The notes under the pieces: generated by a model
The model's input: only the letters and a program-made list of their open reading frames with translations
Told to the model about the DNA's origin: nothing
Database searches by the model: none
Made by a program: the position numbers and the translations under genes
Part shown: one piece after another, positions 1,504 to 37,450 of the stretch
Layout: the number at the start of each line of letters is the position of its first letter
Numbering within the stretch: the stretch's first letter is position 1
Assembly (NCBI GenBank): GCA_951406725.2
Contig: OX597824.1
Location: 46,128,001-46,192,000 of the forward strand
From: Octopus vulgaris
Taxonomy: Eukaryota
Direction of reading: 5' to 3'
Length of the DNA stretch: 64,000 nucleotides

Positions 1504-2249
1504 AAATATATAATATTTCCATTCTACAAATTATACAGCCCAAGTGAAATCGAGAGGAAAATCAGAGAAAAGAATTTTATTGATAAATTCGAACCCAAGC
1601 TAAATAAGCAATAATAATAATACTTAGAGGTACTACTTCTACTGCTACGACCATGACCACTAACAACAACAACAATACTAAAGGTGATCAAGATGAAGCT
1701 AGCAGGAAAATTATCTTATTTAGGGTTAAAAATTCTATTGCCACCACCATCACCACTAGCAACAATAATTAAGGTGCTGACAATGATGATGATGACAATT
1801 GAAATATAAAAATCCCTGACAAAGGCTATTTACATTTCTAAAAATAGCCCAACAATTGCTGCCTCGGCCAGGGTTAAGATACAGGACTCTTGACATGTTC
1901 AACAAAGTGTGATGCCTAAACCAATCAGCTTAAGTAATTGATTGATGCTACACACTGATTGGTCAGAATACAGTTTGCAAAACCTAGCAATCTGGAGCCT
2001 ATACAGGTGTATTTAAGGCACAGATTTAACCATCTCACTACAGTCAAAAATTATGAAGCATAACTGTCACCACTACTACATGAACCTGAAGATTGCATAA
2101 TTTAATGCATGAAAGTACTAGTTCAATCAGAATGAACATTTAACATTCTATTATTTTATATTATTTTATTATATTATATTATATTATACTATATCATTAT
2201 AAGATTGTAAATAAAATGTGAAAATCAGACAAGGCTGGAATTCCTTTTA

Positions 2250-19535: not shown

Positions 19536-20011
19536 TTATCAAGCATTATATCTAAGTGTAGCTTAGTGGTTAGTGTATTCAGCTCACAAGACATCTATTC
19601 CTCTCTCTACATATACTTTCACCTCTCTCAATACTATGCACCCATTCAGTTGAGTGGGGTGGGTCTTGACTTGCGAGTTACTTGATAACTTCACTTGTGC
19701 CACATAAAAAGCATCCAGTACACACTGTAAAGTTGGCATTAGGATGAGTATCCATCCATGAAACCATGCCAAAGCAGAATTGGAGCTGGACACCATCCTA
19801 TGGGCTGCTGGTTCCTGTTCACCAGTTCAAACCATGCCAGCATGGAAAATTAACATTAAATGATGAGGATAGATGGATGGATAGCTAGACAAATAGATGG
19901 TGTAGACAGATAGATAAATTAGATAAATAGATAGATAGATGTATCTGTCTATCTATTTATAAATAGATAGACAGATACATAGACAGACAGATATATTGTG
20001 GTGTGTTTTAC

Positions 20012-20177
20012 CTTTTTATTTTCAAGTACACCTGTGTCTGGTATAACAAACTTCTGGTAGACAGCAGGAGTCCAAATAGGGTTGACAGGGATAGGCTGAA
20101 ATTCCTCAGGAGTAACAAGACCATAAGTGGCTTTAAGTTCAATGACTGGGGCATCATAAGGAATCTTTTGATGATAT
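20012..20177 (-). CDS. BROX: BROX coding exon 10
   Basis: ATAAAG| (I)YHQKIPYDAPVIELKATYGLVTPEEFQPIPVNPIWTPAVYQKFVIPDTGVLENKK |GTAAAA; 166 nt; ends in phase 0. Confidence 0.92.
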
Positions 20178-20247
20178 CTTTATTAAAAAAAAAAAAGAAA
20201 ATGAAGTAAATGTTGAATAATTACATTAGTCATGTTTTCATAATATA

Positions 20248-20458
20248 TGAGGGGGTGCTGAAAAGTTCTTGGCTTTGAGTAAAAGAAAATATAGGAAGAT
20301 CAGTTAATTATGATTTTATTTAACGTATTCCCTTCTTAGATTCACACTCTTATTGCAGTAGTCCTTCAGTTTATTTGTAAAGGAACTTGAAAGGTTAGGC
20401 CTTCAACCAGGCCTTTCACAATACTCTTAAAACCAGGAACTTTTCAGCACCCCCTTGT
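20248..20458. mobile_element. Tc1/mariner-type MITE
   Basis: TIRs GAGGGGGTGCTGAAAAGTTC / GAACTTTTCAGCACCCCCTTG; related copies at about 35128-35335 and about 37130. Confidence 0.7.
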
Positions 20459-20544
20459 GGAAAAAAAGGTATAATTAGGAATTTTAAAATACCATTTTAA
20501 TAATATTGTTTTCTTTCACTCAACCTAACACCATACAGAAATCT

Positions 20545-21420
20545 GATTTGAGGTGCAAAGTCAATGTAGCAAAGACCAAAGTTCTAGTAAGTAGGAAGGT
20601 GAGCGCATCACACACACCCTCAGGTAGGTGGCCCTGCTCAATCTGTAGAAAAGGTGTAGGTAGAAACTCCATAAGATGTACCCAGTGTAAGCTATGGACA
20701 CATAAGAGGTGCAGCAACATCAAAGGAAGTTTAACCTGGAAGATAGCTTTTGTGTGCAGCAGATGCACAGGGGCAATAGACACCACAGATGCTCAGAAAA
20801 CAGATTCGATCACACACCAGGGGGAGAAGCTAGAAGTAATTGATAGCTTCCGCTACCTAGGTGACCAAGTTAGTAGTGGGAGTGGATGCTCAGAGAGTGT
20901 TACCACTAGAATAAGAATAGCCTGGGCAAAGTTTAGAAAGCTTCTACCCCTGCTGATGACAAAGGGCCTCTCGCTCAGAGTGAAAGGTAGATCGTATGAT
21001 GCATGTGTGCGAACTGCCATGCTTCACAGCAGTGAAACATGGGCCTTGACTGCAGAGGACATGTGTAGGCTTGAAAGAAATGAAGATAGCATGATCCACT
21101 GGATATGTAATGTCAGTGTGCACACACAACAGAGTCTAAGCGCCCTGAGAGAAATGTTGGACATAAAACGCATCAGATGTGGTGTGCAAGAGAGACGTTT
21201 GCACTGGTATGGTCATATACTACGGATGGATGAGGAGAGATGTGTGAAGAAGTGCCACTCCCAAACAGTTGAAGGAATCAAGGGTAGAGGTAGACCCAGG
21301 AAGACATGGGATGAGGTGGTCAAGCATGACCTTCGAATGTTGGGCCTCACAAAAGCAATGATAAAAGGCCACGACCTCTGGAGATATGCTGTGACTGTGA
21401 AGACCCAGCAAATAAAGTGA
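20545..21420 (+). mobile_element. RTE-clade LINE 3' fragment with an open reading frame (Cys-rich finger plus RT thumb/C-terminus)
   Basis: KVNVAKTKVL...WPCSICRKGVGRNSIRCTQCKLWTHKRC...FRYLGD...RIRIAWAKF...GRGRPRKTWDEVVKHDL. Confidence 0.9.
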
Positions 21421-21845
21421 GTTCACAGCTATATCCTACAGCAGTTTCACCATTCGAAAGTTCCTTGGATGGTACGGCGAACTGCTGTGCTTGAAGAGAC
21501 TTATTGAGTCAAGTACATCAACATCAAAATGAAAATCAAATGGAAATTGTGCTGGTGGCACATAAAAAGCACCATCCGAACATGACCAATGACAGCGCTG
21601 CTTCCATGCCGGTGGCACGTAAAAAGAACTATCTGATCATGGCCATTTCCAGCCTCTTCTGGCCCCTGTGCTGGTGGCACGTAAAAACTATCCACTACAC
21701 TCACAGAGTGGTTGGCATTAGGAAGGGCATGCAGCTGTAGAAACACTGCCAGATCAGACTGAAGCCTGATGCAGCCTCCTGGCTTCCCAGATGCCAGTTG
21801 AATTGTCCAACCCACACTAGCATGGAAAACGGACGTTAAACAATG

Positions 21846-21899
<54 letters not shown>

Positions 21900-22026
21900 T
21901 ATATTTATCATATATATATGTACATACACACACATATATATACACGCATATACACACACACACACACACACACACATTTGTATGTATGTAAGTATACAGA
22001 AAAAAAGATAGAGTGAATATACTCAC

Positions 22027-22177
22027 ATCATTCCATTTTCTCTTTCACATTTTTCCAAAGTTCTTCGTACTTTTGGCCCAAGATTTCTAAAGAATATGTG
22101 TTCATGAGGCTTTGCTTGTGTCCCAGATCCTTTTGCTGCACTATATTCTTTACATCGTGCACTAGATCTCTCAAAAT
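22027..22177 (-). CDS. BROX: BROX coding exon 9
   Basis: ATTAAG| (Y)FERSSARCKEYSAAKGSGTQAKPHEHIFFRNLGPKVRRTLEKCERENGM |GTGAGT; 151 nt. Confidence 0.95.
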
Positions 22178-22982
22178 CTTAATTAAAAATGTTTAAAAAA
22201 AAGGAAAAAGAGAAAAGTAAATAAATATTTTAATAAATTTTGATAGATTGAACATTTCCACTAAGTGGGTGATTTTTTCAGTTTATTAGTTTAGGGAGAG
22301 AGGATTTATTGTTAGCCCAGGTCAAATGGGAAAATGCAGATTTATGATCAAAGGTATTCCGTCTATCACCATCTGACCTTTTTAAGGATATGTAAGACTA
22401 CATTATATAAGACTTTATGTAATAGGATGAAGTGTGATTTATAGGAGATTTGCAGGTTGGACAATTATATAGAAGTCAGTTCATAGAGAAAGAGGAGGAG
22501 GAGGAGATAATGGCAAAACAAGCTGCATTTGTCACTTTCAAGACAGTTTAAACTGGAGGATGAGATTAGTGAGGTTATTTTCAGTTTTCAGTATGCTAGT
22601 TGCTCCAAAACATAAACAATGGACGATTCGGAAAAGTGTTTAACATGAAAGAGAAAAATATAATACTGCACTGAGAGGATTTAGTGAGAGCACTAAACAG
22701 TAAGAAGAAAAGAAGCATGTGGGTCTACAGTAATGGTATGTGTGAAGTCAGTGAACAAAATCTATTTTCTGAGAAGAAAATTTTGCTGCTTCCACTTAAA
22801 ATAAATCTCTTGTAACATTTGTAAGATATTTTATTGATTTAAAATAACCAATAATTTACTTGGTAAAACAATAGGTTAATATTCAAATAAATTTTCAGAA
22901 AAACTTTGTTTAACAGAAATTGTATTATTGTCATTAATTTTACATATCTATGCATATGTCTGTGGGTGTGACTGAGAATCTA

Positions 22983-23155
22983 ACTACATAGCTAGTGTGT
23001 GTGGTGCCCGGGGCAACCCTTCCGTTTGCTGCTCCCCTGACCTCAGAAAAAAACCCACATATTGCCCACAGCAGACCCAAAAGTACAACCCCCATTAAAA
23101 GTGCCACCTGGGGCGACCTGCCCCTACTGCCCCACCGACCCCAGCTATGTTAGTG
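22983..23155. mobile_element. Short GC-rich MITE (hAT-like)
   Basis: Terminal inverted repeats ACTACATAGCT / AGCTATGTTAGT around a GC-rich core. Confidence 0.5.
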
Positions 23156-23926
23156 CAAACAATACTAAAACAGTTAATGTAATTTCACTATACTAATTTA
23201 TTTTAGGTGCGGTATAGCTATGTAGTTAAAAAGTTTGCTTTGTAACCATGAAATCCCTATTCTGTGACATCTTGAGCAAATGCAATTCTCAATAACAACA
23301 GTAAAACAGCGTAGATGGAAACTGTATAGAGGCTTGCTGGCTGCATTGTACCAGTATTTCAAAAGATACAGTGCTGTCACACTGATCCTGTCTGACAATT
23401 ATGTTAAGCATACACATTGCTGTGGAATACTCAGCCAATTGCATTTAATTCAGAAGCAAGTTGACTGAACAACTTAATGCTAAATATTGGAGATCTACCC
23501 ATCCACCACTAATTTTGTTATATGATTTTATATTGCAAGTATATATAGATATATGTACACAGTAAAAGCAATAAAAAAAAGTATAGTGAACTTGCCACGA
23601 GGGGTGAAAAATGCATCACAAAAAATTTGAAAGGAGAGAAATTATTGAGGAAACAGTAGGAGGATGTACATTAATATCTCTCCTTTCAAATTGTCTCTGA
23701 AAAAAGATACAATCTGAAACGTACTTTCTACTCCTCACAGCAAGTTCCCCTTATTCTTTTTCTTGATTTTACTACATAATATAAGTCTCGCCAACTCAGA
23801 TGAGCACCAGCTCCTTTGTAGTCTGATTGATAATATATGTATCAAATAAATCAAACAAATCAAAGCAAAGTTTAAAAAGTACAAAAGGGGTCCTATGTGA
23901 AAGTTAAACTAAGTGTACAAAAACAC

Positions 23927-24237
23927 TTCACCACAACAATGTACCTGAACACAATGCCCTAAGCATCCAGCAGTTCCTGGCCAAGAAGAACAACAGAAGA
24001 TGGCAAGATGACTCCAGGAGCAGGAGGCCTTCAACAACAGGATAGGTCAATGTTGAGCAATCAATCAGCAAGTCTACAAAGAGATCCTGTGGCATTTGCT
24101 TTGCTCAGTGTGCAAGAAATGAGAGTTGTGGGGGGGATGAATTGTAGCTGCTTCACCACAACAATACACCTGTTCACAGCACCCTGAGCATCCAGCAGTT
24201 CCTGGCCGAGAAGAACAACAGGAGATGGCAAGATGAC
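23927..24237 (+). mobile_element. Mariner transposase fragments with a partial tandem duplication
   Basis: CTTCACCACAACAAT..ACCTG..CACA..CCCT.AGCATCCAGCAGTTCCTGGCC occurs twice about 225 bp apart; matches the element at 25830. Confidence 0.7.
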
Positions 24238-24313
24238 AAAGCAACAAGCATCATTCGAGAAGTGATCAAGAGTTTAGTAAGGTACCAAACAGTGTAAATG
24301 AAAATATACTTAC

Positions 24314-24395
24314 ATTTCATTGCTTCCTGAAGGCATTTGATGGCTTCTCCACATTTATCTTGAGCCAGCAGTGTTTCTCCATGATAGGTATGTGC
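24314..24395 (-). CDS. BROX: BROX coding exon 8
   Basis: ACATAG| [27 protein letters not shown] |GTAAGT; 82 nt. Confidence 0.95.
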
Positions 24396-25829
24396 CTATG
24401 TGGTAAATATTCGATGATGAGAACAAAAAAGACAATTTTTATTTTGCTAGTAAGATAAAGGGTCTCATTTCTTCATATTATTATATGTATATTCATATAT
24501 ATCTATGAACATACATATATGAAACTTTCATTAGAATGACCTTAGATCAGTAGCTATTTAAAATTCAGTTTCCTTGTCAGTCTGTCAGACATCTCACTGA
24601 GCTTTTTATTCAGCCAATATGTGTATTGCTTAAGGTGACAAGCTGGTAGAACCATTAGTACACCAGGTGTGTCTTCATGTTCTGAGTTCAAATTCTGCTG
24701 AGGTTGACTTTGTCTTTCATCCTTTCAGAGTTGATAAAATAAGTACCAGTTAAGTACTAGGGTTGGTGTAACTGATGCACCCCTTCCTGTAATTGCTGGC
24801 CTTGTGCCAAAATTTGAAATCAATATTTGTATTATCTACACACAATTGAATTTATGCATAATTTCATCCAAACTCTCAAGTGAGGCTGTTTCATATATAT
24901 TACTGAACTTCTATTTATACTGCTATCTCAGAAGTTTTTCAACTTTACCTCTCACTTCCTAGTTGTAAACATCTGCCATTCTTGAAAAGATTTTGCAGAG
25001 AGAGCCAGATTATCAGTACACTAGTGTTCTTAAGAATATTGGTTTCAAATTTTGGCATAAGGCCAGCACTTTTGGGGGAAGAGGTAAGTTAGTTACATCA
25101 AGCCCAGTGCTCAAACCTGAATATATCTTTCGAATCTTCACACATGAACTAAACTGTTCTTAGTTTACTAATAGCTACGGATCTCAGTGTCAACTATACA
25201 TGTGTCTATATATGCATATGTGAAACTATAAATATGAGTATAAAGACGAGTGTGTATGTGTGTGTGAGTGTAAATATATGTATGTGTGAGTATATATATA
25301 TCAATGCTGTCACTGTTTTTAATTACCCTTTTTCATATTTGTATGGGTCAGACAGAATCAAAGCAGATTTTTTACGGATGTATATTTTTCCTGTCACCAA
25401 CCTATACCTATTTTCCAAGCAGAATGTTGGAAATGAATTACACTATGTGTATGACAATGACACTCATTTACTATTGTCATGATGATGAAGGTTCCAGCTG
25501 ATCTAATTAATGGAAATTAAACATGCAAGTGACTGAGCACTCTACAGACACATATTTCTCAGAAACAGTATGACACAGAATGTGACAAGGCTGGTCCTTG
25601 GAAATACAGGTACTTCTCATTTTTGTTAGCTAAGTGGACAGGAGCAATGTGAGAATAAAATGTCTTGCTGAAGGACACAATACGCTGCCTGATATCGAAC
25701 TCACGACCTTATGGTTGTGAGCAGAGTACCCTAACTACTAAGTCATGTGCCTTCACTGTGAATATGCATGTATGCATGTGTGTGTGTGTGTACTTATATA
25801 TACAAATGCAACACATAGAAATATATGTA

Positions 25830-26713
25830 CGAGGTTTGTTTGAAAAGTAACAGGACTGGGTGTGCTGTGAGCTATGAGCGAAAGAGGGATAAGTAGATTG
25901 TGTTATCATCTAACATGATATCAAGGGAGTATATAACTGTAATCTTAGCTTTCTGCAACCATTGAATATTTTTCACATGCTTTTGTTTACACCTCTTTTT
26001 CAGGTTGTTCAGCTATGAGCATTGAGAAAGGAACAATGAACACCTAGCAACAAATAAACCTGAAATTTTAGGTCCAGTAGGGGAAAACTCCATCACAAGC
26101 ACTTGAAATGCTTCAGCAAGAATATGGAGATAACACAATGTTGTGCACACGTTTTGAGTGGCACAAAAGGTTCAAAGAGAGGTGTGAGAAGGTGGAAGAT
26201 GACTCCAGGAGCAGGAAGCTTTCAACAAAAGGACAGGTCAACATTGAATAGTCAATCAGCAAGTCTACAACGAGATCCTGTGGCATTTGCTTTGCTCAGT
26301 GTGCAAGAAATGAGAGTTGTGGTGGGATGAATTGTGGCTGCTTCACCACAACAATGCACCTGCTCACAGCGCCCTGAGCATCTGGCAGTTCCTGGCCAAA
26401 AAGAACATTGCTGTACTGGAGTAACCACCCTATTCATCTGATCTTACTCCACATGACTTTTTATCTTTTCTCCAAGCTCAAGGGAATCATCAAGCGAATC
26501 AATTTTGTAAGCGTGAAAACCACGTGTAACAATGGAGCTGAGGGGCATTCCAGATGAATCCTTCCAGCAGCGCACAGATGTATGGCAGAGAAGGATGGAA
26601 AAGTGCATTAGACTTAAGGGGGAAACTTCAAAGGGGAAACGATGTAGTTTGTTGCTTGAAATTGAAATAAACTGTTTGTGACACCAGTCCAGTTACTTTT
26701 CAGACAGACCTCA
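25830..26713 (+). mobile_element. Internally deleted mariner element
   Basis: TIRs CGAGGTTTGTTTGAAAAGTAAC / GTTACTTTTCAGACAGACCTCA flanked by TA. Peptide remnants FEWHKRFK, LLHHNNAPAHSAL, PPYSSDL. Confidence 0.85.
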
Positions 26714-27116
26714 TATATGTATGTTGGCACTGTTTTCCAACATCTCTTGAGTCATTCCCATCCACTCATCTATAATGTGAGTTGCAATATAGCTCTTCTG
26801 CAGAAAGAAACTGGTTCTGTTCTGGCCTCTTCTCTCACACTTTAACCTTTCATCTTCTAGATTAAAGCTGCCTTCCTCTCAACTGTAGCTCTACTTAGTC
26901 AAAAGGGATCCTCTTTTTTCAGGCTGCACAGAGACCTCATTACTGTTGGTACCACAAAAAAGCACCCAGTACATGCAATAAAGCAGTTAGTATTAGGAAG
27001 CTCACTCAGTTGTAGAAGCTATGCCAAAATAGAATAATGGACCTAATGTATCCCGTCAAATAATTCGTCATGCCAGCATGAAACATGAACATTAACTGAA
27101 CATGATGATGATGATG

Positions 27117-27148
<32 letters not shown>

Positions 27149-27343
27149 ATACATATACAGAAATATTAATATTTCTAAATCTCTCTAAAGGAGACTATGG
27201 CAGTCAGGGAAAATAGGACGAATGCTGCTGTTGATTAGCTCCAAGAGACCATCGCCTCTAGCTAGCTATGTGACACACAAACCTATGTCCATTATAACCT
27301 ACGAACAGGGGAGGTCAGCAGCTTCCCCTTGCTGGTTCAACAA

Positions 27344-27384
27344 CCACAGACTAGTTTCGGAGTGATTGCCCTTTCTCAATGTAG
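27344..27384 (-). ncRNA. Inverted second copy of the U3-A8 hammerhead (weakened stem II)
   Basis: Reverse complement reads CTACA-TTGAGAA-AGGG CAATCA CTCC-GAAA-CTAG-TC-TGTGG, with an A.C mismatch at 10.1/11.1. Confidence 0.65.
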
Positions 27385-27584
27385 AGTAGCTGAACCCAGC
27401 AGGCATCACTGCTGACTGTCTGTTCGAAGGTTTATTTACCTATATTCAGTGGATAGTCTCCTATAGAGAGATTTAAAAATATTAATATTTCTATTTTTGA
27501 AAACCAGTGGATGTGTTCCACTGAATATAGGTAAATAAACCTTCAAATAGACAGTCAGCAGCAATGCCTGCTGGGTTCAGCTAC

Positions 27585-27627
27585 TCCACATTGAGAAGGG
27601 GCAATCACCCCGAAACTAGTCTGTGGA
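27585..27627 (+). ncRNA. Apparently intact minimal type I hammerhead, U3-A8 core variant
   Basis: TCCACA-TTGAGAA-GGGG CAATCA CCCC-GAAA-CTAG-TC-TGTGGA. Stem I has 6 bp, stem II has 4 G-C pairs, stem III is palindromic (ACTAGT). Predicted cleavage is after the GUC at 27621. Confidence 0.8.
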
Positions 27628-28525
27628 TGTTGAACCAGCAAGGGGAAGCTGCTGACCTTCTCTGTTCAAAGGTTGTAGTGGACACAGGTTTGTGTGTCAC
27701 ATAGCTAGCTAGAGGCAATGGCCTCTTGGAGCTAATCAATGGCAGCATTCGTCCTATTTTCCTAGATTGCCATGTTAGCTTGGCGATAACTATTAATATC
27801 CAGTACTGCTGCCGTAGTCTCCTTTAGAGAGATTTAGAAATATTAATATTTCTATTTTTGAAAACAAGTGGATGTGTTCCACTAAATAAACCTTCGAACA
27901 GACAGTCAGCTTGGCGATAACTATTAGTATATGTGTGTGTGTGTGAAGGAGTATATGGGAGTGAATATGTGTGAACAAAACTGGAGAGTTTGTTCCTTAA
28001 TTGTTTAATTGTCTTACATGTGTTTCAGTGAAGATAATGTCTACATTATGCAACCCATGCTTGAATTACATAATTTGGCCTTAATCTTCACTGAAAAATG
28101 AGTGATGGCATAATTAAGTAATCTATGAAGCACCTCTCCAGTTGAAATTTTTTCCTCTATATATACTCTGCAACCTTTATCATTATGGGGACCAGTGAAA
28201 GGAAATTTGGACTATATGAATCTGCATTGCAGTTTTCTCTTTTAACATAAAGGAATACACATGAAATTTTAAATATTGGTTATCATTATTTTGATATCCA
28301 CTTTTCCATGCCTGCATTGAGAATTTGAGGCAGATTTTCTGTAGCTGGATGCCCTTCCTGTCACCAACTTTCACCTGCTTCCAAGTAAAGTAATATTTCC
28401 CCATGACTAGACAGGCTTTCATGGGAGACTGGAAATGAAGGACACTACTTACATGATGGTGACAGTCCTTTACAACTATTACATGAAGTCAAGGCAAGAA
28501 GACTATAACACACATACACATATAT

Positions 28526-29027
28526 ATTACATGGGAAAATGCGAGCATGCAAAGTAATACTCTTAAGATTACAAACCTGGAAAAGTACAGAACAAGTTAA
28601 TACAGCCGTATAAGTATAGGACAAGCTATTACTTCTAGTAAAGTAAAGAATAAGAAACTTTTTACTTAAAATACCAGTTCTTCTAATTTATCACTCTTTA
28701 CAGTTCTCATCTCTTAAATTTATTGTACAAAACTGTTCAGCTAATTTGTAACTTTGTCTAATTAGTCACTTTTTTCTGTATTTAAGGTAGTAAATTAGCC
28801 AAATTCTACTTAAATAAGTATAGTGTTATTTGTAAACTATAATAAAATAAGTTTTAATACTCAAATTTTAATTTTAGCTGCAATATTTTAAGTAAAAAGT
28901 TTCTTATTCTTAACTTTACTAGAATAGCTTGTCCTATACTTTTACAGGGGTAATAACTTATCCTGTACTTTTCCAGGTTTATAATCTTAAGAATATTACT
29001 TTTTGTGCTCGCATTTTACCACATAAT
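28526..29027. mobile_element. Foldback/MITE-like element with about 145-bp inverted arms
   Basis: 28526-28673 is the approximate reverse complement of 28884-29027. Confidence 0.8.
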
Positions 29028-30774
29028 CCATAATTTTTCCAGGTATTGCTGTTATAAGATAATTAATAATGTGTCAATTAATAATTTAAGATTTTACCTT
29101 ATAAAATACTGAAAGATAACATTTCAATTTTTCCATGTAAGTGATGATGATATTTCAATTTTTTTCATGTGTAATTTAAATACATGTTGTGATCAAATTA
29201 TTTGATATTACCCATCCACACCAAATTAAGAGAAGGGATTTTTACCATGTTGTTGGTTACACCATGGCTCACCAAAAGTTACAAACAAGACCTCAAAACC
29301 ATCAGTTACCAGGCTCACCTTAAGTAACCTAATTTTGCAATATTAGGCGGTCACAGGAATACATTCAACTAAAAAAAAAAAAAATTTCCAATGATTCCTG
29401 GATTGGGGGGAACCCTCCACATCATTTTTTCCGAACCAAAATAAGGGATTTGCAGCATATTAGGTGGTCAGAGTACTTGATGCAAAAAATCAAATTTTTT
29501 TGTTTTTTTCTTAGTAAAAATCGTGCGGGTGTTAATATAGAAATTTACCATAATGTTGTTTTATTTAGCCTCAAATCAACCCAGATACTGCAAACCTATC
29601 ATCAAAGACATTCCAGCCTTCAGCAAATCATCTTTTTAGGGATAATCTAGGATATTACATACAATGGGTGTGTGAATTAGGTAGAGGGATACTTTGGCTG
29701 CTATTCTTAGCATGTCAAGCAACCAGGTAGAGGCTCTTATATATGTAATATGTATATATATCATCGGCAGAAGTTAGAAAGTAGGTCAAAAGCCTTCATG
29801 TATTGGCACTTATCAAACACAAATTTGTCCATTGTTACTCTGTAACTTCTGACGAAATAACTTCTAAAATACAAAATTTTGTCAAAAATGTTAAAAGTAA
29901 ACCCTGTTCTAAGTGACACATTCTACCAGTATCGGAAGTTTGAAAGCATTTAGTTAAAAAAAATTAATCAAATAATCTGTATGTCAAAGTCAACCTCGGC
30001 GAAATTTGAACTCAAAACTCAAAGACAGACCAAATACCGCTACACATTTCACCTAGCACGCTCGCTGCATTTCTGCAAGCTTGCTGGCTTAGAATGTAAA
30101 GAAATATATTCTTTATTCTTATTGCCTAGGCGTTACTTCTTACTTCCTCACTTACTGACATTAAATTTCGTAACATTTTACCTCATAACTGTTTTTTCTA
30201 CTAATTTTTGTTCAATGTGACTAACGATTCTGAAATCCTCATGCATTTTTCTATCATTTAAGCCTAAGAAAAATATACTTTTAATTTAAAATTAAAAAAT
30301 TTATGTTAATTGAAGATGAATATCTGCCTAACTGCTCACTTAAGGTCTGACATATTTTGATGTAACTTTTTTTCTACTGAACCAAATCTCAAACTATTTA
30401 TGCCAAAGAGTAGCTGAAGAGGTGCAATTTATTTGAGAACTGAATTAGTGGTGAAGCTTGGAAGCTGCTGCAATTGACGAAATGGTGGACTTCAGAATAT
30501 ATTCAACCACTACCGTGGTTGACTGATTTATACACACAATAGGCTTTTTTCAGTTTCTGTCTACCAAAACTAATTGCAAAGCTTTAGCTGGCCTGGGCTT
30601 ATAGTAAAAAGACATTGCCCACGGTACCACACAGTAAGACTGAACCAAAGACTATGTGTTTGGGTAGCAGACTTCTCACCACATAGCCATGCAAGAGCCT
30701 ATATGTCAGGTAATTTAAATCACCTATACACTTATAACTATCTATTTACAAGTTTACATGTGAGATATACTTAC

Positions 30775-30860
30775 GTAGGCTGTATAGAAATCTTTCTTTA
30801 GTTGGAAGTATTTCCTCCATTTGTTAACTGTTTCAGCATCTAAACTGGAAAGAGTATCAT
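30775..30860 (-). CDS. BROX: BROX coding exon 7
   Basis: TTTCAG| (D)DTLSSLDAETVNKWRKYFQLKKDFYTAY |GTAAGT; 86 nt. Confidence 0.95.
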
Positions 30861-31282
30861 CTGAAAATAATTACATGAAGATATTAATTAAAAACATATT
30901 TGTAATAGATAGAATAATTTCTTGCATGGACACAAGAACATGGTCAGAAATATTATGGGTAGAATTAGTCAATCATATTGATTACAATATTTGACTGGTG
31001 CTAAGACAGTGAGCTGGCAGAAGCATTACTGTGCCAGGCAAAGTGCTTAATGACATTTCATCCATCTTTACGTTCAAATTCTGTCAAGGTTTACTTTGCC
31101 TTTCATCATTTCAGGGTACATAAAATAAGCACAAGTTGAGCATCGGGGTTGATGTAATCAACTTAACCCAACTCCCAAAATTGCTGGCCTTGTGCCAAAA
31201 TTTGAAATCAATATTTGATTAGTACTTTATTTTATCAACCCCAAAGGAAATAATAAAAGTAAAATGCTTCTCCTTTATTTAT

Positions 31283-31680
31283 CTTTGGTGACTGTAGCAT
31301 TGACCAGAGGGAATTGATGTCATCAGATAGTGTCCAGTGATCATTAGGTATTCTGACCCTGAACCAAAGTACCATTCCATTGATTAGTTTTTAGTGAGAG
31401 TTTTTCCCTGCTCAGTCACTACGGAGAATGCTTACAGCCAATGAAATTAGAGTGAGCAAGAGAGAACAAGGTAGCTATGTGTAGGCTGGGAGAGAAGCAG
31501 AAAGAGTCTTTTGGTGATTGTAAAACTGGAAATGAGGAAGAGAAAAGGAGCAGTAATTTGGTCCCACTGTCATCCCATCAATAGGAGGGTGTTAGAATTT
31601 AAGGCTGAAGCAATACAATAATCATTGGACACCCTCTGATGACATCAATTTCTCCAGCTCAAAGCTACATTCACAATAGG
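31283..31680. mobile_element. MITE-like element with about 65-bp TIRs
   Basis: GAATTGATGTCATCAGATAGTGTCCAGTGAT versus ATCATTGGACACCCTCTGATGACATCAATTT. Confidence 0.65.
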
Positions 31681-32859
31681 TGAATGTAGCTCAAAGCTTT
31701 AAAATGTAGTCAATCTAATAATAATAATGCTTTCACATTTTGGCACAAGGCCAGCAATTTTGAAGGAGCGATAAGTCAATTACATCAACCCTAGTATTCA
31801 ACCAGTACTTATTTTACTGATGAAAGGTAAAGTCCGCTTTGGTAGAATTTGAATTCAGGACGTAATGATCGATGAAATGCTGCTGAGCATTTTGCTTGGC
31901 GTGCTAACAATTCTGCCAGCTTGCTAGTAGTAGTAGCAGTAGTAATAATAATCTTTTCTACTAAAGGCACAAGGCCTGATATGTTGGAAGAGGGGACAAG
32001 TTGACCCCAGTGTTTCACTGGTACTTAATTTATTGACCCTGATAGGATGACAGGCATCATCATCATCACCACCCTGTTAGACATCGAAAACACCAATCTG
32101 AAACAGGAAAGAGAAAGTGACCTACTGCCAGGTACTTAAACCATCCACCTATCACTTTCTAGGCAACTGTATTACCAATTAAAGTCAACCTCAGTGGAAT
32201 TTGAACTCAGAACATAAAGATGGATGAAATGCTGTTAAGCATTTTGCCCAGCATGCTAATGATTCTACCAGCTCACCGCCTTTTACAAAATAATAGTCCT
32301 TTCTATAATTGGCCCCAGTGTGTGACTGGTACATATTTTATCGACCCCCAAAAGGATGACAGGCAAAGTCAACCTCAATGGAATTTGAACTCAGAAGAGA
32401 CATGGATGAAATGCTGTTAAGCATTTTGCCCAGCATGCTAACAATTCTGCTAGCTTGCCACCTTTTATAAAACTGTAGTAATGAAGCATAATCAAGTATT
32501 GAATTAAAACTCAGAATGCCATCATCATCATCTTCGTTTACTTTTTCCTTAAAGTTGGTTCTATAGTTACAGCTGAGTATTAAAATTCTAGCTACGATTG
32601 CTCTCACATCAGGCCTAATAATAAGTTAATAAAGGAAATCTTCAGAAAATATTCATAAATCATTTCAATGTTATGATACAAGGAAGTCTCATGCATCTGA
32701 GACAACATTTTTCAACAAGTGTTAGTTAATCATAACAGGAAAATAAAAACTAAAAAAAAAAATATTATTTTCATACATCCTCATAACTGAAATACAAAAA
32801 GAAATTAATTATAAGGATTAACTGTAATTACATGGAATTATGTGGAAAATTATACATAC

Positions 32860-32949
32860 CAGCTTTTGTGTAGAGCTGTGCAGTTTCATATGTTAATGCA
32901 GCAATTAAACTGGCACTATGTTTAAGTTCAATAGCTCGTGCTGTGGTCA
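32860..32949 (-). CDS. BROX: BROX coding exon 6
   Basis: TTACAG| (V)TTARAIELKHSASLIAALTYETAQLYTKA |GTATGT; 90 nt. Confidence 0.95.
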
Positions 32950-33749
32950 CTGTAAGAAGATGATAAACATATGGATGTGTATATATTACCATCAATACCA
33001 TAATATTTATATATATGCACACACACACACACACACGTGTTGCTTAATATCAGAAGAATGAAAAAGGAGTACTCAAAACATATCCTTGTAGAGGATATGG
33101 ATTTTTAAAATTAAAATTGAAGCAGAGAATTTGTCTTGTGACATGAGTTTCATGCCATTGCAATCTTCAGGAAAAACTATTATAACTTCGTTGGTAGTGC
33201 ATGTGTATATATGTATGTGTGTATACATATATCCAATTTCCCATGCTTGCATGAGGTCGTTGCAATCTATTAAGGCAAATTCACCAACCCTCATGTCTGT
33301 CCTGACATACTTTCATGGACGACTGGAAAGAAAAGACATTACTTGTATGACAGTAATGCTTGTTTATAACAACCACATGATGTCAAGATAAGAAAGCACT
33401 AACAGACATCCACAGCTATGCACACACACATGTATACAGCCATCTTTCAGTTTCCAGCTACAAAATCCACTCATAAGACTTTCATCGGTTTGGGGCTATA
33501 GTACAAAACACTTGCCCAAGGTACCAAACAATTAGACTAAATTCAAGATTATATGGTTGGGAAGCAAACTCTTCAACCACACACTCACACCTGCACACAT
33601 ATCATCATCATCATCATCATTTAACATCCATTGGACAGTTTAACAGGAGCTGGCAAGCTAGAAGATTGTGCCAGATTTCACTGTGTTTTGGCAAGGTATT
33701 TATAGCTGAGTGTTCTTCCTAATGCCAATCACCTTACAGAGTGGACAAT

Positions 33750-34618
33750 GGTCTGATCAATAAGTATCTGGACTGTTGAGATAGTAACAAAGCTCAAGCA
33801 CAGAGAGTGAAGCCACTTGGCATAGACTGACCTTGAACATTACTGTGCATGTGCACTAAGTTTTAACATTCTAGCTCGCTTCCGCTGTTTACAGCAGTGC
33901 TTGGAAGGAAGGTGTGTAGTGTGTGATCGTCACATTAACTGTAACAGAAGAAGTTGAGCAGAAAATCTGCATCAAATTTTGCCAAAAGTCTGGCAATATC
34001 TAATCAGTTTTCAAAAGGTTTTCATCGTTTTCAACACAATCAAGGAGATCTTGTGCAACTGAAACTTGAGTGTCTTTTTGGTCAGCTGAAAGCAGTTTTG
34101 GCACAAACTTGGCAGACATGCATCTCATACCCAAATCTTTAGTGATAATGAACTGAACCATAACTAATCTGCACATCGTCTGATAAATCACAGTTGGTAA
34201 TTTGACAATTTCCCCTCACAGTTGCATGCACATCTGTGATGTTTTTCTCAGTTCTGTTGGTTGTGGATCTCCCATAACATTTGTCAATATTGATATTTTT
34301 TCAGCATCTTGGAAACGTCTGAACCACTCGTACACTTGTGTGCAGCTCATACACTCCTCTCCATACACTTTCTGCAACTTTGCGTAGGCCTCTGAGCAGG
34401 TATCACCATGACAACTTTGTCTGTCATAGTCAATGTGACAATCACATGCTACACACTTTCCTTCCAAGCACTCCTGTAAACAGTGGCAGTTAGCTAGAAT
34501 TTTAAAACTTAGTGTGCAGCACAGCAGAGTTCAAGGTCACTCTGTGCCATGTGGCTTGACTGCATGTTTTAGCTTCATTACCATGACAATAGACTGGATA
34601 CTTACTGATCAGACCTCA
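33750..34618 (-). mobile_element. Mariner remnant with long inverted 5' ends
   Basis: GGTCTGATCAATAAGTATC / GATACTTACTGATCAGACC. Minus-strand peptides LQKVYGEECMSCTQVYEWFRRF and LGMRCMSAKFVPKLLSADQK. Confidence 0.85.
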
Positions 34619-34627
34619 TATATATAA

Positions 34628-34685
<58 letters not shown>

Positions 34686-34891
34686 ATATAAAGTATAATT
34701 CTATAATATAAATATACATTATACATACATACACACACACACACACATATATACAAATGCAAAAGTAAGTTGAAGGAAATTTGAAATAAGGACATTAAGA
34801 TTGATACAAGAACCATAAACCTCACAGAGTGTTGCTCTTAAAAATATACAATTTTCTTTTTCTTTTGTAAATAAACATTTGAATTTGTTAC

Positions 34892-34994
34892 CTTCTTGAG
34901 CTTCGGCAGTAGATTGGTAAATGAAAGCATCAAGAACACGAACATCCAAATCAGTACCACTATCAATGTCTACAAGTCTTGCACACAAGTCATT
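34892..34994 (-). CDS. BROX: BROX coding exon 5
   Basis: TCAAAG| NDLCARLVDIDSGTDLDVRVLDAFIYQSTAEAQE |GTAACA; 103 nt. Confidence 0.93.
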
Positions 34995-35987
34995 CTTTGA
35001 AGAAAAGAAAAGTTCATTATTCAGTAGATGAAGGGATAAAATATATAAGGAACATTTGTAAATGATAGCTAATTTTAAGCTGGTTTTATAGAAATGTAAT
35101 TAGGATTTTTTTTTAAAGCCTGGTACTTACAAGGGCATGCTGAAAAGTTCCTGACTTTAAGGGTATTGCAAGGCCTGGTTGGAAGCCCAACCTTCCGAGT
35201 TCTTTTACAGGGCTTAGAAAAACTGAATACAATAAATATGTGAATCTGAGAGGGGAATATGTTTAATAAAATCATAATTAACTGATCCTCCTCTATTTTT
35301 TTTATCCAAAGTCAGGAACTTTTCAGCACTCCCTCATTTTCTACCAGTCTTTTTTTGCTTGAACTGCTAAGATACAGGGATGTAAACACATCAATACCAG
35401 CAGTCAAGTGATGGTGGGGTACAGACACACACACATATATACAACAGGCTCCTTCTGTCTACCAAATCCACTCACAAGGCTTTCAGAATATATATTTTCC
35501 TTCTTGTCAAATAAACATTATAAGAATCTCCTTTTATTTTTGCTGAACTATTGGGATGATCTCCATCCTGAGATGAAATCAGCAAACTATATCCAACAAA
35601 TGAAGAAATGAATAACTAACTAAAACACGTACCTATTATGAAAGATAACCATGCAATTTAAACATTAACTTTAAAATCACCAAAAGAAAATGAATTAATT
35701 AAAGAAACAAGAATAAAATGTTATTCCAGATCCTTTTTCTTCACTTGGTTAAATCATTGTGAGAGATCTCTATGTGATTGGTCAACCTGCTAAAAATAGC
35801 AATCAAATCTCTCCCAAATCATATTCTGTTTTAAACACACTCATAAGATATTGTACTCCTAGACACTAGCATGTCTAAAATGTGATAGTCACAGTTGGAA
35901 TGCCTTTGGTCCTAGGTCTGCTGTATCAGGGCATGTCTTAGACTAAGCAAAAACCATTGTGAGTTTTGCAGTTGAAAGAACACTTAC

Positions 35988-36060: not shown

Positions 36061-36367
36061 CTGCAACATAAGACAGAACATCGTAAGTAAACAAACACAA
36101 CAAATGCAGTTTTAATGTGAAGGATTTCTTTAATTACTTAGAAACACCTTTGATTGCAAACATTTAAAAAGTGCTTTATAACCTTTCTTACTTCAGTTCT
36201 CACTGAAAAATCATCATCATTTAATATTTATTTTCCATGCAGGTATGGGCTGGACAACTTGACAGGAGCTGATAAGGCCAGGGACCACACTAAGTTCCAT
36301 AGTCGTTTTTGGTTTGGTTTCTACAGATGGATGCCCTTCCTAATGTAAACCATTTTACATTGTACCA

Positions 36368-36745
36368 AGTGCTTTTTATGTGGCACCGTCACCAGTGCAT
36401 CTTATGTGACACCATCACCAGTGCTTTTCATGTGGCACCATCACCAGTGCTTTTTATGTGGTACCAGCACCAGTACTTTTTACATGGCATCAGCACCAGT
36501 GCTTTTAATGTTGTACCTGCATCAGTGATTTTAACATGGTACCAGCACCAGTGATTTTAATGTGGCATCAGCACCAGTTCTTTTAATGTGGAACCAGTAC
36601 CAGTGCTTTTTATGTGACACCAGCACTTTTTATGTGGTACTAACACCAGTGCATTTTACATGGAATTAGCATCAGTGCTTTTTACGTGGCACCAGCATCA
36701 GTGCTTTTTACGTGGCACCAGCATCAGTGCTTTTCACATGGCACC
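36368..36745. repeat. Minisatellite with an approximately 26-bp unit (about 15 copies)
   Basis: Unit GTGCTTTTTACGTGGCACCAGCATCA, with variants. Confidence 0.9.
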
Positions 36746-37450
36746 TTGGTTTGTACAGTATTAAAATATAGCAAGAACATTTACAGATATTCTGAATGCT
36801 AGCAAACAGCCATATACAAAAAGGCAACATAGGATGAAGACACACACATGTACATACATACTCACACACACACACAGGGTGGAGTGATTGTGCATGTATT
36901 CACTTTATGAATATTTGAGTCTTGAGTTCACAAACAAGAGGGAAAAAGTAGTCAGTGCAAAAGTAGAGAGGAAATATTTATTATAGTACTGACATTACTT
37001 TCTGTCACTATCCACAGTATCATGTATGCTGCTATTCATTAGCATAGTTGAAACTGAGTGTAACAGAGAGTAGTCTCAGGTCTACAAAATGTGTGTGTAT
37101 GTATGTATACACACACATATATATGCATGTACAGGGGAGTGCTAAAAAATTCCTCACTTTGGATAAAAGAAAATACAGGAGGATCACTTAATTATGATTT
37201 TATTCAACATATCCCCCTCTCAGATTCACACACTTATCTGTCCAGTGCTGACCTCTGTCAGATTCCCAGATATGTTTCTAGCTCTTTAGCCATTATCAAT
37301 GGGAAATAATGAAGAGAAGTAACTATGGGCATGCATGCACACACACATTCACACACATCATCCCTTTGTGTGTGTATGTCTATGGATTAAATAATTCAAG
37401 CATTCAAGAAAGAGAGAGGAATTAATAAGAACACCAAAAGTTTGACTTAC

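What the first reader, a model, noticed from the sequence alone, without database searches (positions are those of the whole stretch)
27159..27926. Intact-looking U3-A8 variant hammerhead inside a 257-bp inverted repeat in BROX intron 7
Seen: the core is TTGAGAA instead of CTGANGA, so positions 3 and 8 have both changed and can still pair. Stems I and II are perfect and stem III is palindromic. The motif is duplicated in inverted orientation (about 22 mismatches by eye over 257 bp, mostly transitions). The spacer is reused as a direct repeat and as an inverted repeat. Known: C3-G8 is a base pair in the active HHR, and compensatory variants can retain activity. Inference: this family was under selection for self-cleavage, and standard CUGANGA searches would miss it. 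The nested architecture resembles Penelope inverted pLTRs.
Basis: partly seen in the sequence, partly recalled or inferred. Interest (0 to 1): 0.8.

Follow-up and report, generated by a model that had tools for sequence, protein, structure and literature searches.

The report
Octopus retrozyme relic with U3-A8 hammerhead
A hammerhead-shaped RNA motif with an already published swapped core pair (U3-A8) sits in a decaying copy of a very abundant octopus repeat inside a BROX intron; the repeat is likely a small Penelope-dependent jumping element whose family would cut its own RNA, but this copy is predicted not to cut the host transcript.

Summary
There is a type I hammerhead motif (core TTGAGAA, 27585-27627, + strand) in a 257-nt inverted repeat with 22 mismatches (19 transitions), in coding intron 7 of octopus BROX, a minus-strand gene. 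The locus is one insertion of a high-copy repeat: 5,746, 3,192 and 2,481 contigs were laid on it in three DNA runs. It has a 361-nt non-coding, strongly self-paired unit (z -7.6), a partial second unit in tandem, a head-to-head inverted copy, and both 3' ends in TA/CA microsatellite. This fits a non-LTR retrozyme with Penelope-type integration marks. U3-A8 is not new: it was reported in nature in 2011 and in about 1,300 Schistosoma Penelope hits in 2014. Only the copy antisense to BROX is intact. The sense copy has lost G10.1, and in the whole locus both motifs are predicted to be buried in a 257-bp duplex. Both arms drift from the family alike (6 and 8 own changes among the listed rows), so the data show no selection at this locus. 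Self-cleavage, circular RNA and a partner Penelope ORF were not shown. This is a new member of a known kind; interest is low.

The parts
27102..27158 (.). (GAT)n/(TA)n/(CA)n microsatellite, left insertion site
   Evidence: sequence
27159..27196 (-). 3' end of the inverted copy; equals 27815-27853 (39 of 39 over 27159-27197)
27197..27453 (-). inverted arm: 5'-truncated copy of the unit, sense to BROX; lacks the 41-nt segment 27774-27814
27343..27385 (-). damaged hammerhead copy (core starts 27379; G10.1 to A at 27372, stem II C to U at 27361)
27454..27814 (+). one full 361-nt repeat unit, GC 42.7%, no long ORF, strongly self-paired
   Evidence: MFE -129.1, z -7.65 linear, -6.58 circular, 60 shuffles each
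27454..27516 (+). 63-nt spacer between the arms, which is the start of the + unit; head-to-head junction at 27453/27454
27517..27773 (+). + arm of the inverted repeat
27538..27674 (+). predicted long rod with the hammerhead at its tip
27585..27627 (+). type I hammerhead motif, U3-A8 core 27591-27597, predicted cut after 27621; distal stem I 27575-27581 with 27629-27635; antisense to BROX
27815..27910 (+). partial second unit in tandem (10-nt gap); breaks off before its hammerhead
27905..27930 (+). terminal copy of 27774-27799 (24 of 26), joined through a 6-nt near-repeat; matches a common family 3' end
   Evidence: loose ends behind 27799 into (AT)n in 33 (X1) and 29 (X10) contigs
27927..27945 (.). 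TA/(TG)n microsatellite, right insertion site
   Evidence: sequence
30775..30861 (-). BROX coding exon 7 (upstream of the host intron)
24315..24395 (-). BROX coding exon 8 (downstream of the host intron)

Best explanation
This is a decaying insertion of a high-copy, non-coding octopus repeat of about 361 nt that carries a U3-A8 type I hammerhead motif and is likely a non-LTR retrozyme copied by Penelope-like enzymes; the family's tandem transcripts would self-cleave as dimers, while this copy is predicted to be inactive in BROX pre-mRNA. Shown: the motif, the unit, a partial tandem, a head-to-head inverted copy, microsatellite ends, many diverged family copies under three organism labels, and decay of both arms. 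Inferred: a transcript through tandem units folds so that the ACUAGU palindromes of two motifs pair into a 6-bp stem III. Each motif then cuts after GUC, releasing unit-length RNA that may circularise. A Penelope RT/GIY-YIG protein would reverse-transcribe it into (TA)n DNA, leaving 5' truncation, an inverted copy at the 5' end and two alternative 3' ends about 55 nt apart. One such event gave this locus, since both arms share 4 departures from the majority letter of all three DNA runs. Later the second + unit likely lost its hammerhead through a deletion between 6-nt near-repeats, and the minus copy lost G10.1. In BROX pre-mRNA the antisense arm is transcribed first, so the two arms are predicted to zip into a 257-bp duplex, a likely ADAR substrate rather than a ribozyme.
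For: Motif beyond chance. Unit size 361 nt, GC 42.7%, z -7.65, 60% paired, no long ORF, against the published retrozyme traits of 170-400 nt, GC under 45%, highly self-paired, and 350-390 bp in mussel (PMC7229834); 5,746/3,192/2,481 contigs laid in X1/X6/X10, most under 95% alike. X10 record 9 holds two pieces head to tail at unit spacing. Joints go back 345 and 363 nt in X1 and X6. X10 record 12 holds another head-to-head inverted pair. Loose ends run into (AT)n behind 27799, and a joint runs 27855 to 27928. Depth is far higher over 27690-27870 than over the motif. Loose ends behind 27336 (51/22/16 contigs) keep the GAAACTAGTC half-core with other stem letters. Penelope signatures in print: partial tandems, an inverted 5'-truncated copy at the 5' end, a tail at one end, (TA)n targets. 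Octopus Penelope families with (TA)n preference, one with a hammerhead, are listed. Cofold of two + motifs pairs the palindrome: -48.8 against 2 x -22.8 kcal/mol. Hammerhead stem pair probabilities are 0.88-1.0 for the + copy alone, 0-0.47 for the minus copy alone, and 0.0 for both in 27159-27926.
Against: No cleavage, circular RNA or expression shown. No RT/GIY-YIG ORF is linked to the unit, no genome was held, and 8 short motifs of the unit had 0 hits in the one supplement with octopus Penelope consensus sequences (one strand only, and line breaks can hide a match). The cofold MFE pairs stem I between molecules and gains only about 3 kcal/mol, so it is weak support. The depth drop over the motif also reflects diverged subfamilies falling under the 80% cut-off, and depth is no copy number. 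The go-back joints can arise from the window's own repeated spacer. Family-wide U3/A8 conservation is only indirectly seen (40 of 286 variant rows shown). In a 2026 preprint only 1 of 9 predicted Xenopus retrozyme dimers cleaved.
Confidence: 0.7

Rival explanations
1. The unit is the pseudo-LTR (3' end) of an autonomous Penelope-like element, and this locus is a heavily 5'-truncated insertion with no ORF left.
For: Same architecture as Penelope insertions. U3-A8 was first tied to Penelope pLTRs of Schistosoma. The window holds a likely Penelope remnant elsewhere: a GIY-YIG-like C-terminus at 1504-1611 followed by a C3-G8 motif at 2086. Retrozymes and pLTRs are reported to be homologous in Xenopus.
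Against: The end of the unit runs straight into the start of the next unit, here and in X10 record 9, with no ORF between. The motif has the canonical shape (6-bp stem I, 4-bp stem II, no extra base after A9), not the minimal pLTR shape. There is no similarity to the 1700-2230 region.
Confidence: 0.2
2. This copy has been kept by the host and regulates BROX, by cutting the intron or an antisense RNA, or through its long duplex (editing, splicing).
For: The + motif has 0 own changes among the listed rows. The right junction is seen in organism A (X1 record 8, 0 differences) and apparently in organism E (X10 record 14, 30 other letters), so the insertion is not recent. A 257-bp duplex is predicted in the pre-mRNA.
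Against: The BROX-sense copy is the damaged one. Both motifs have stem probability 0.0 in context. Of 21 arm positions with listed variants, 8 are changes of the minus arm only and 6 of the + arm only; the motif region has 4 mismatches against 3.7 expected. Arm divergence K2P is 0.093. There is no second same-strand motif to dimerise with.
Confidence: 0.05
3. The repeat is a SINE-like or satellite-like family whose hammerhead is a vestige that never needed to cleave during the main expansion.
For: The most deeply covered part lies 3' of the motif. Hammerhead mutants did not affect insertion by an Anolis Penelope in vitro (PMC11167929). Naiad elements thrive without hammerheads.
Against: Variants with different stems keep the half-core and palindrome. 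No tRNA gene was found in the window. The unit folds far better than shuffles.
Confidence: 0.05

Closest known systems
Non-LTR retrozymes of metazoans with canonical type I hammerheads (Cervera and De la Pena 2020, PMC7229834; mussel repeats of 350-390 bp)
   Same: Unit size, GC under 45%, non-coding, strong self-pairing, type I motif with short palindromic stem III, tandem units.
   Different: U3-A8 core. Dispersed insertion with an inverted copy and microsatellite ends. Cleavage and circular RNA not shown here.
U3-A8 minimal hammerheads of Cercyon-type Penelope elements of Schistosoma mansoni (Cervera and De la Pena 2014, PMC4209133)
   Same: Same core covariation (about 1,300 hits there); motif pairs on opposite strands 100-700 bp apart; predicted dimer dependence.
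   Different: Here stem II is 4 bp with no extra base after A9, and stem III has a 4-nt insert: canonical shape, not minimal. No ORF link shown.
Natural U3-A8 hammerheads (Perreault et al. 2011, PMC3088659)
   Same: C3-G8 covaries to U3-A8 in several natural examples; the paper states such covaried cores had been shown active in vitro.
   Different: No octopus repeat in the passages seen.
EN+ Penelope-like elements, including octopus Naiad_Obim/Ovul/Omin and Hydra-1_Obim (Craig et al. 2021, PMC8557442)
   Same: Partial tandem, inverted 5'-truncated copy at the 5' end, alternative 3' ends, (TA)n target.
   Different: No ORF. The listed Hydra-1_Obim hammerhead has a C3-G8 core and other stems. 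0 hits for 8 unit motifs in that supplement. The two 3' ends are about 55 nt apart against a 30-40 bp tail.

Membership tests
Type I hammerhead ribozyme | Core N3-UGA-N-N8-A ... GAAA ... UH with positions 3 and 8 able to pair | tested here: met
   U3-A8 in both copies; variant accepted in print
Type I hammerhead ribozyme | Stems I and II form, stem I open-ended | tested here: met
   + copy: pair probabilities 0.88-1.0 in three contexts without the other arm. Not met for the minus copy (stem II 0-0.13) nor in the whole locus (0.0)
Type I hammerhead ribozyme | Stem III, or a palindrome for dimer pairing | tested here: met
   ACTAGT 27615-27620; paired between molecules in cofold
Type I hammerhead ribozyme | Score above an Rfam hammerhead model | tested here: not met
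   No hammerhead family among 25 matches to E 5 in 20000-35000
Type I hammerhead ribozyme | Self-cleavage 3' of H17 | not testable with these tools
   Only contigs were available, no raw RNA reads
Non-LTR retrozyme | Non-coding unit of about 170-400 nt, GC under 45%, highly self-paired | tested here: met
   361 nt, 42.7%, z -7.65, all six frames broken by stops
Non-LTR retrozyme | Head-to-tail tandem units, each with a type I motif | tested here: inconclusive
   Partial tandem here, but the second unit lacks the motif. X10 record 9 is tandem, but only one of its two aligned pieces spans the motif
Non-LTR retrozyme | Multi-copy family with conserved core | tested here: inconclusive
   Multi-copy: met. 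No row for 27591 or 27596 among 40 of 286 shown; shown rows seem to need about 85% share in one run, so a minority of C3-G8 copies is not excluded
Non-LTR retrozyme | Expressed as unit-length linear and circular RNA | not testable with these tools
   No listed holder on record as RNA
Autonomous Penelope-like element | RT and GIY-YIG ORF next to the pLTR | tested here: not met
   None at the locus (output partly cut); not testable genome-wide
Autonomous Penelope-like element | Tandem/inverted insertion, tail, microsatellite target | tested here: met
Minimal pLTR hammerhead (min-HHR) | Long stem II, extra base after A9, little or no stem III | tested here: not met
   4-bp stem II, no extra base, 4-nt insert

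The most novel reading that the evidence does not exclude
Octopuses carry an undescribed, very abundant retrozyme family built wholly on a U3-A8 hammerhead of canonical shape, which self-cleaves, circularises and bears every Penelope integration mark. It would be a direct mollusc example that retrozymes are Penelope's non-autonomous partners. With a second, unrelated U3-A8 motif 10 kb away, U3-A8 may be a major hammerhead core in cephalopods that CUGANGA searches have overlooked.
Probability: 0.3. Interest if true: 0.45.

Novelty: new member of a known kind. Interest (0 to 1): 0.2.

Why it matters
Modestly. It adds octopus to the animals with retrozyme-like repeats, and it shows Penelope-type insertion marks on a non-coding unit, which bears on the open question of what mobilises retrozymes. 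It also shows that hammerhead censuses limited to CUGANGA or to Rfam miss such families. It does not reveal a new ribozyme chemistry or, on present evidence, a regulatory ribozyme in BROX.

Tried and rejected
No genome is held for the window, so copy number and ORF linkage could not be counted. Rfam: no hammerhead; the miRNA matches, all below gathering score, reflect the long hairpin and microsatellites. No further copy of the unit in the window. Metagenome scans: 0 exact hits; a looser pattern gave 21 loci, none with the TTGA core, and their best blastn match to the unit was 22 nt at E 0.007, so they were rejected as chance. Viral and prokaryote collections: 0 hits. No tRNA. No RNA holder listed. 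One run guessed to be RNA (X15) gave 74 records, among them a 200-nt piece across the right junction; it may be DNA, so it is not counted as expression, and its change spectrum (A>G 15, G>A 14) says nothing on editing. Single BROX exon frames gave no Pfam hit; identity rests. CpG decay explains only 7 of 22 arm mismatches. A MITE reading was rejected: the inverted arms are copies of the unit's body, and the same sequence also occurs as direct repeats. Earlier scan notes: nothing by sequence, by genome or by the first word search. Lunse et al. 2017 was not available; only its title was seen in a reference list.

Full report
Observation. The inverted repeat is as described: arms 27197-27453 and 27517-27773, 257 nt, 63 nt apart, 22 mismatches of which 19 are transitions. 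The + arm holds a type I hammerhead motif: 6-bp stem I, core TTGAGAA (27591-27597), four G-C pairs with a 6-nt loop, GAAA, the palindrome ACTAGT and a GUC triplet ending at 27621. A descriptor for type I motifs with a paired 3-8 core found 3 hits in the window on both strands against a mean of 0.01 in 100 dinucleotide shuffles. The 66-nt + motif folds at z -2.64, the minus copy at z +0.23.

Host gene. One exon matches, at 100%, a protein that a source names BROX of Octopus sinensis, and it matches human BROX chains in the PDB at E 1e-7. Eleven coding exons map to the minus strand, and the element lies between the seventh (30861-30775) and eighth (24395-24315). The intact motif is therefore antisense to BROX, and the copy in the pre-mRNA is the damaged one: G10.1 to A, and G-U pairs in stems II and I.

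Anatomy. The + side is a 361-nt unit (27454-27814), then the start of a second unit (27815-27910), which jumps through a 6-nt near-repeat to a copy of 27774-27799 and ends in TA/(TG)n. The second unit thus lacks about 220 nt, including its motif (the deletion is inferred). The minus side starts head to head at 27453, copies unit positions 27517-27773, lacks 27774-27814, and ends at the equivalent of 27853 in a (TA)n/(CA)n tract. The unit is 42.7% GC, has stops in all six frames, and folds at -129.1 kcal/mol (z -7.65 linear, -6.58 circular, 60 shuffles each) with the motif at the tip of a long rod.

Family. No genome was held. Of 24 listed runs, 20 hold part of the stretch, under six coded organism labels. 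I laid 4 of them at 80% likeness: 5,746 (X1), 3,192 (X6), 2,481 (X10) and 74 (X15) contigs, most under 95% alike. This is a large, diverged family; depth is not a copy number. Summed depth is about 50-60 on X1's flank contigs, about 1e4 over the + motif and 2.6-5.6e5 over 27692-27867. That fits 5' truncation, but also the loss of diverged subfamilies at the cut-off. Copies end behind 27799 in (AT)n (33 and 29 contigs), and others near 27855 (a joint to 27928, loose ends at 27856 and 27858), so there are two 3' ends about 55 nt apart, and this locus uses one at each end. X10 record 9 has two pieces head to tail at unit spacing; X10 record 12 has another head-to-head inverted pair. At core position 7 the family reads T (17,142 of 17,939 depth in X1; 12,257 of 12,753 in X6; 1,290 of 1,484 in X10), so the family core is likely TTGATAA and the G is local. 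No row was shown for U3 or A8, but only 40 of 286 rows were printed and these seem to need about 85% share in one run, so family-wide conservation is consistent but unproven. Loose ends behind 27336 (51, 22, 16 contigs) and one insert in table 5c keep GAAACTAGTC with other stem letters, which hints at selection on the core at family level; their 5' half-core was not visible.

This copy. The 23 listed rows inside the arms cover 21 positions: 8 are changes of the minus arm only, 6 of the + arm only, 6 are shared by both arms (4 against the majority of all three DNA runs, 2 against X10 only) and 1 differs in both. Both arms thus came from one source variant and have since drifted alike (K2P 0.093). 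The motif region has 4 arm mismatches against 3.7 expected. No change in the 17 core and stem III letters has P 0.22, and no own change of the + arm in 43 nt has P about 0.15. These data show no selection at the locus, though the test is weak. The right junction is in X1 (record 8, 0 differences) and apparently in X10 (record 14, 30 other letters, 44 nt into the element), which suggests an old insertion. In the whole locus, on either strand, the arms pair and all nine tested hammerhead stem pairs have probability 0.0; without the other arm they are 0.88-1.0 for the + copy and 0-0.47 for the minus copy. On either strand the complementary arm is made before the motif (follows from the layout). 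No second same-strand motif remains for a dimer.

Mechanism. Best reading (0.7): a non-LTR retrozyme-type element. Tandem transcripts would cleave as dimers through the palindromic stem III (cofold pairs it, -48.8 against 2 x -22.8 kcal/mol; weak support), give unit-length and possibly circular RNA, and be inserted into (TA)n by a Penelope protein. All of these steps are inferred. Rivals: truncated pLTR of an autonomous Penelope (0.2), host-kept regulator (0.05), vestigial motif in a SINE-like family (0.05). Against easy optimism: minimal Penelope hammerheads cleave weakly in vitro, 1 of 9 Xenopus dimers cleaved in a preprint, and hammerhead mutants did not affect insertion by an Anolis Penelope in vitro.

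Known kinds. PMC3088659 (passages) reports U3-A8 covariation in several natural hammerheads. PMC4209133 (parts 1-2 of 4; passages of supplement file 2; file 1 not seen) reports about 1,300 U3-A8 hits in Schistosoma mansoni and opposite-strand pairs 100-700 bp apart, and defines the canonical metazoan shape (6-bp helix I, 4-bp helix II, short palindromic helix III) that this motif has. PMC7229834 (passages and section 14) gives the retrozyme traits. Craig et al. (preprint passages; PMC8557442 supplement searches and part 2 of 59) describe the tandem/inverted/tail/(TA)n pattern and list octopus Naiad and Hydra families. The preprint 10.64898/2026.07.22.740005 (parts 1-3 of 5; supplements not seen) argues that retrozymes derive from pLTRs. 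PMC11167929, PMC6765202, PMC7151607 and PMC13282606 were seen as passages; the last has no mention of hammerhead or ribozyme in its main text, and its supplement was not read.

Novelty. Searches for 'hammerhead ribozyme' with 'octopus' (5 papers, 4 listed), 'retrozyme' with 'octopus' (3 papers, 2 listed) and 'U3-A8' (1 paper) showed no description of this family by title or abstract start. Repbase, Dfam and subscription papers were not searchable, so it may already be catalogued under another label. The core variant and the architecture are known. Verdict: new member of a known kind, interest 0.2. An earlier AI note on another genome reached the same view of a U3-A8 motif; it is not independent evidence.

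In passing. The window has two more hammerhead-like motifs with no sequence link to this unit beyond the core: a U3-A8 motif at minus 37299 in BROX coding intron 3, sense to the gene, next to a mariner-like end (fold z -0.59), and a C3-G8 motif at + 2086 downstream of a 36-aa frame whose 4 hits include a protein with a GIY-YIG domain. Hits of that score with an exact paired core occur 0.025 times per shuffled window (200 shuffles).

Noticed in passing
window 37257-37305, minus strand (core starts 37299): Second U3-A8 type I hammerhead-like motif (TTGATAA, 6-bp stem I, 5-bp stem II, imperfect palindrome), unrelated to the 27.5-kb unit, sense to BROX in coding intron 3, abutting a mariner-like end at 37135-37237 that recurs at 35232-35333 and 20251-20353. 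Fold z -0.59.
   Followed up: partly
window 1504-1611 and 2081-2126, + strand: Likely Penelope remnant: a 36-aa frame resembling the end of GIY-YIG proteins (4 hits, one with Pfam GIY-YIG), then about 470 nt on a C3-G8 hammerhead-like motif shaped like published Hydra-clade motifs, then AT-rich and (TA)n DNA. It follows a Tc5-type transposase fragment (794-1510).
   Followed up: partly
window 28521-28673 and 28884-29032: MITE-like inverted repeat (110 nt at 85% plus 41 nt at 98%) in the same intron; a second predicted duplex in BROX pre-mRNA.
   Followed up: no
window 25821-25859 and 26684-26722: 39-nt terminal inverted repeats 824 nt apart, mariner-like by recall, same intron.
   Followed up: no
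window 26956-27000: Short piece of another high-copy repeat just left of the element (raised depth and loose ends in all four runs).
   Followed up: no
window 36338-36769: Array of 26-nt units in BROX coding intron 3, joined to a common dispersed repeat of this genome.
   Followed up: no
window 25363-25471 and 28330-28473: Two diverged copies (72-75%) of a dispersed repeat on either side of the element.
   Followed up: no
window 20488-21417 (+) and 34003-34530 (-): A 310-aa frame that looks like a non-LTR retrotransposon fragment (recalled resemblance; Pfam gave only weak zinc-finger hits) and a mariner transposase fragment (PF17906).
   Followed up: no
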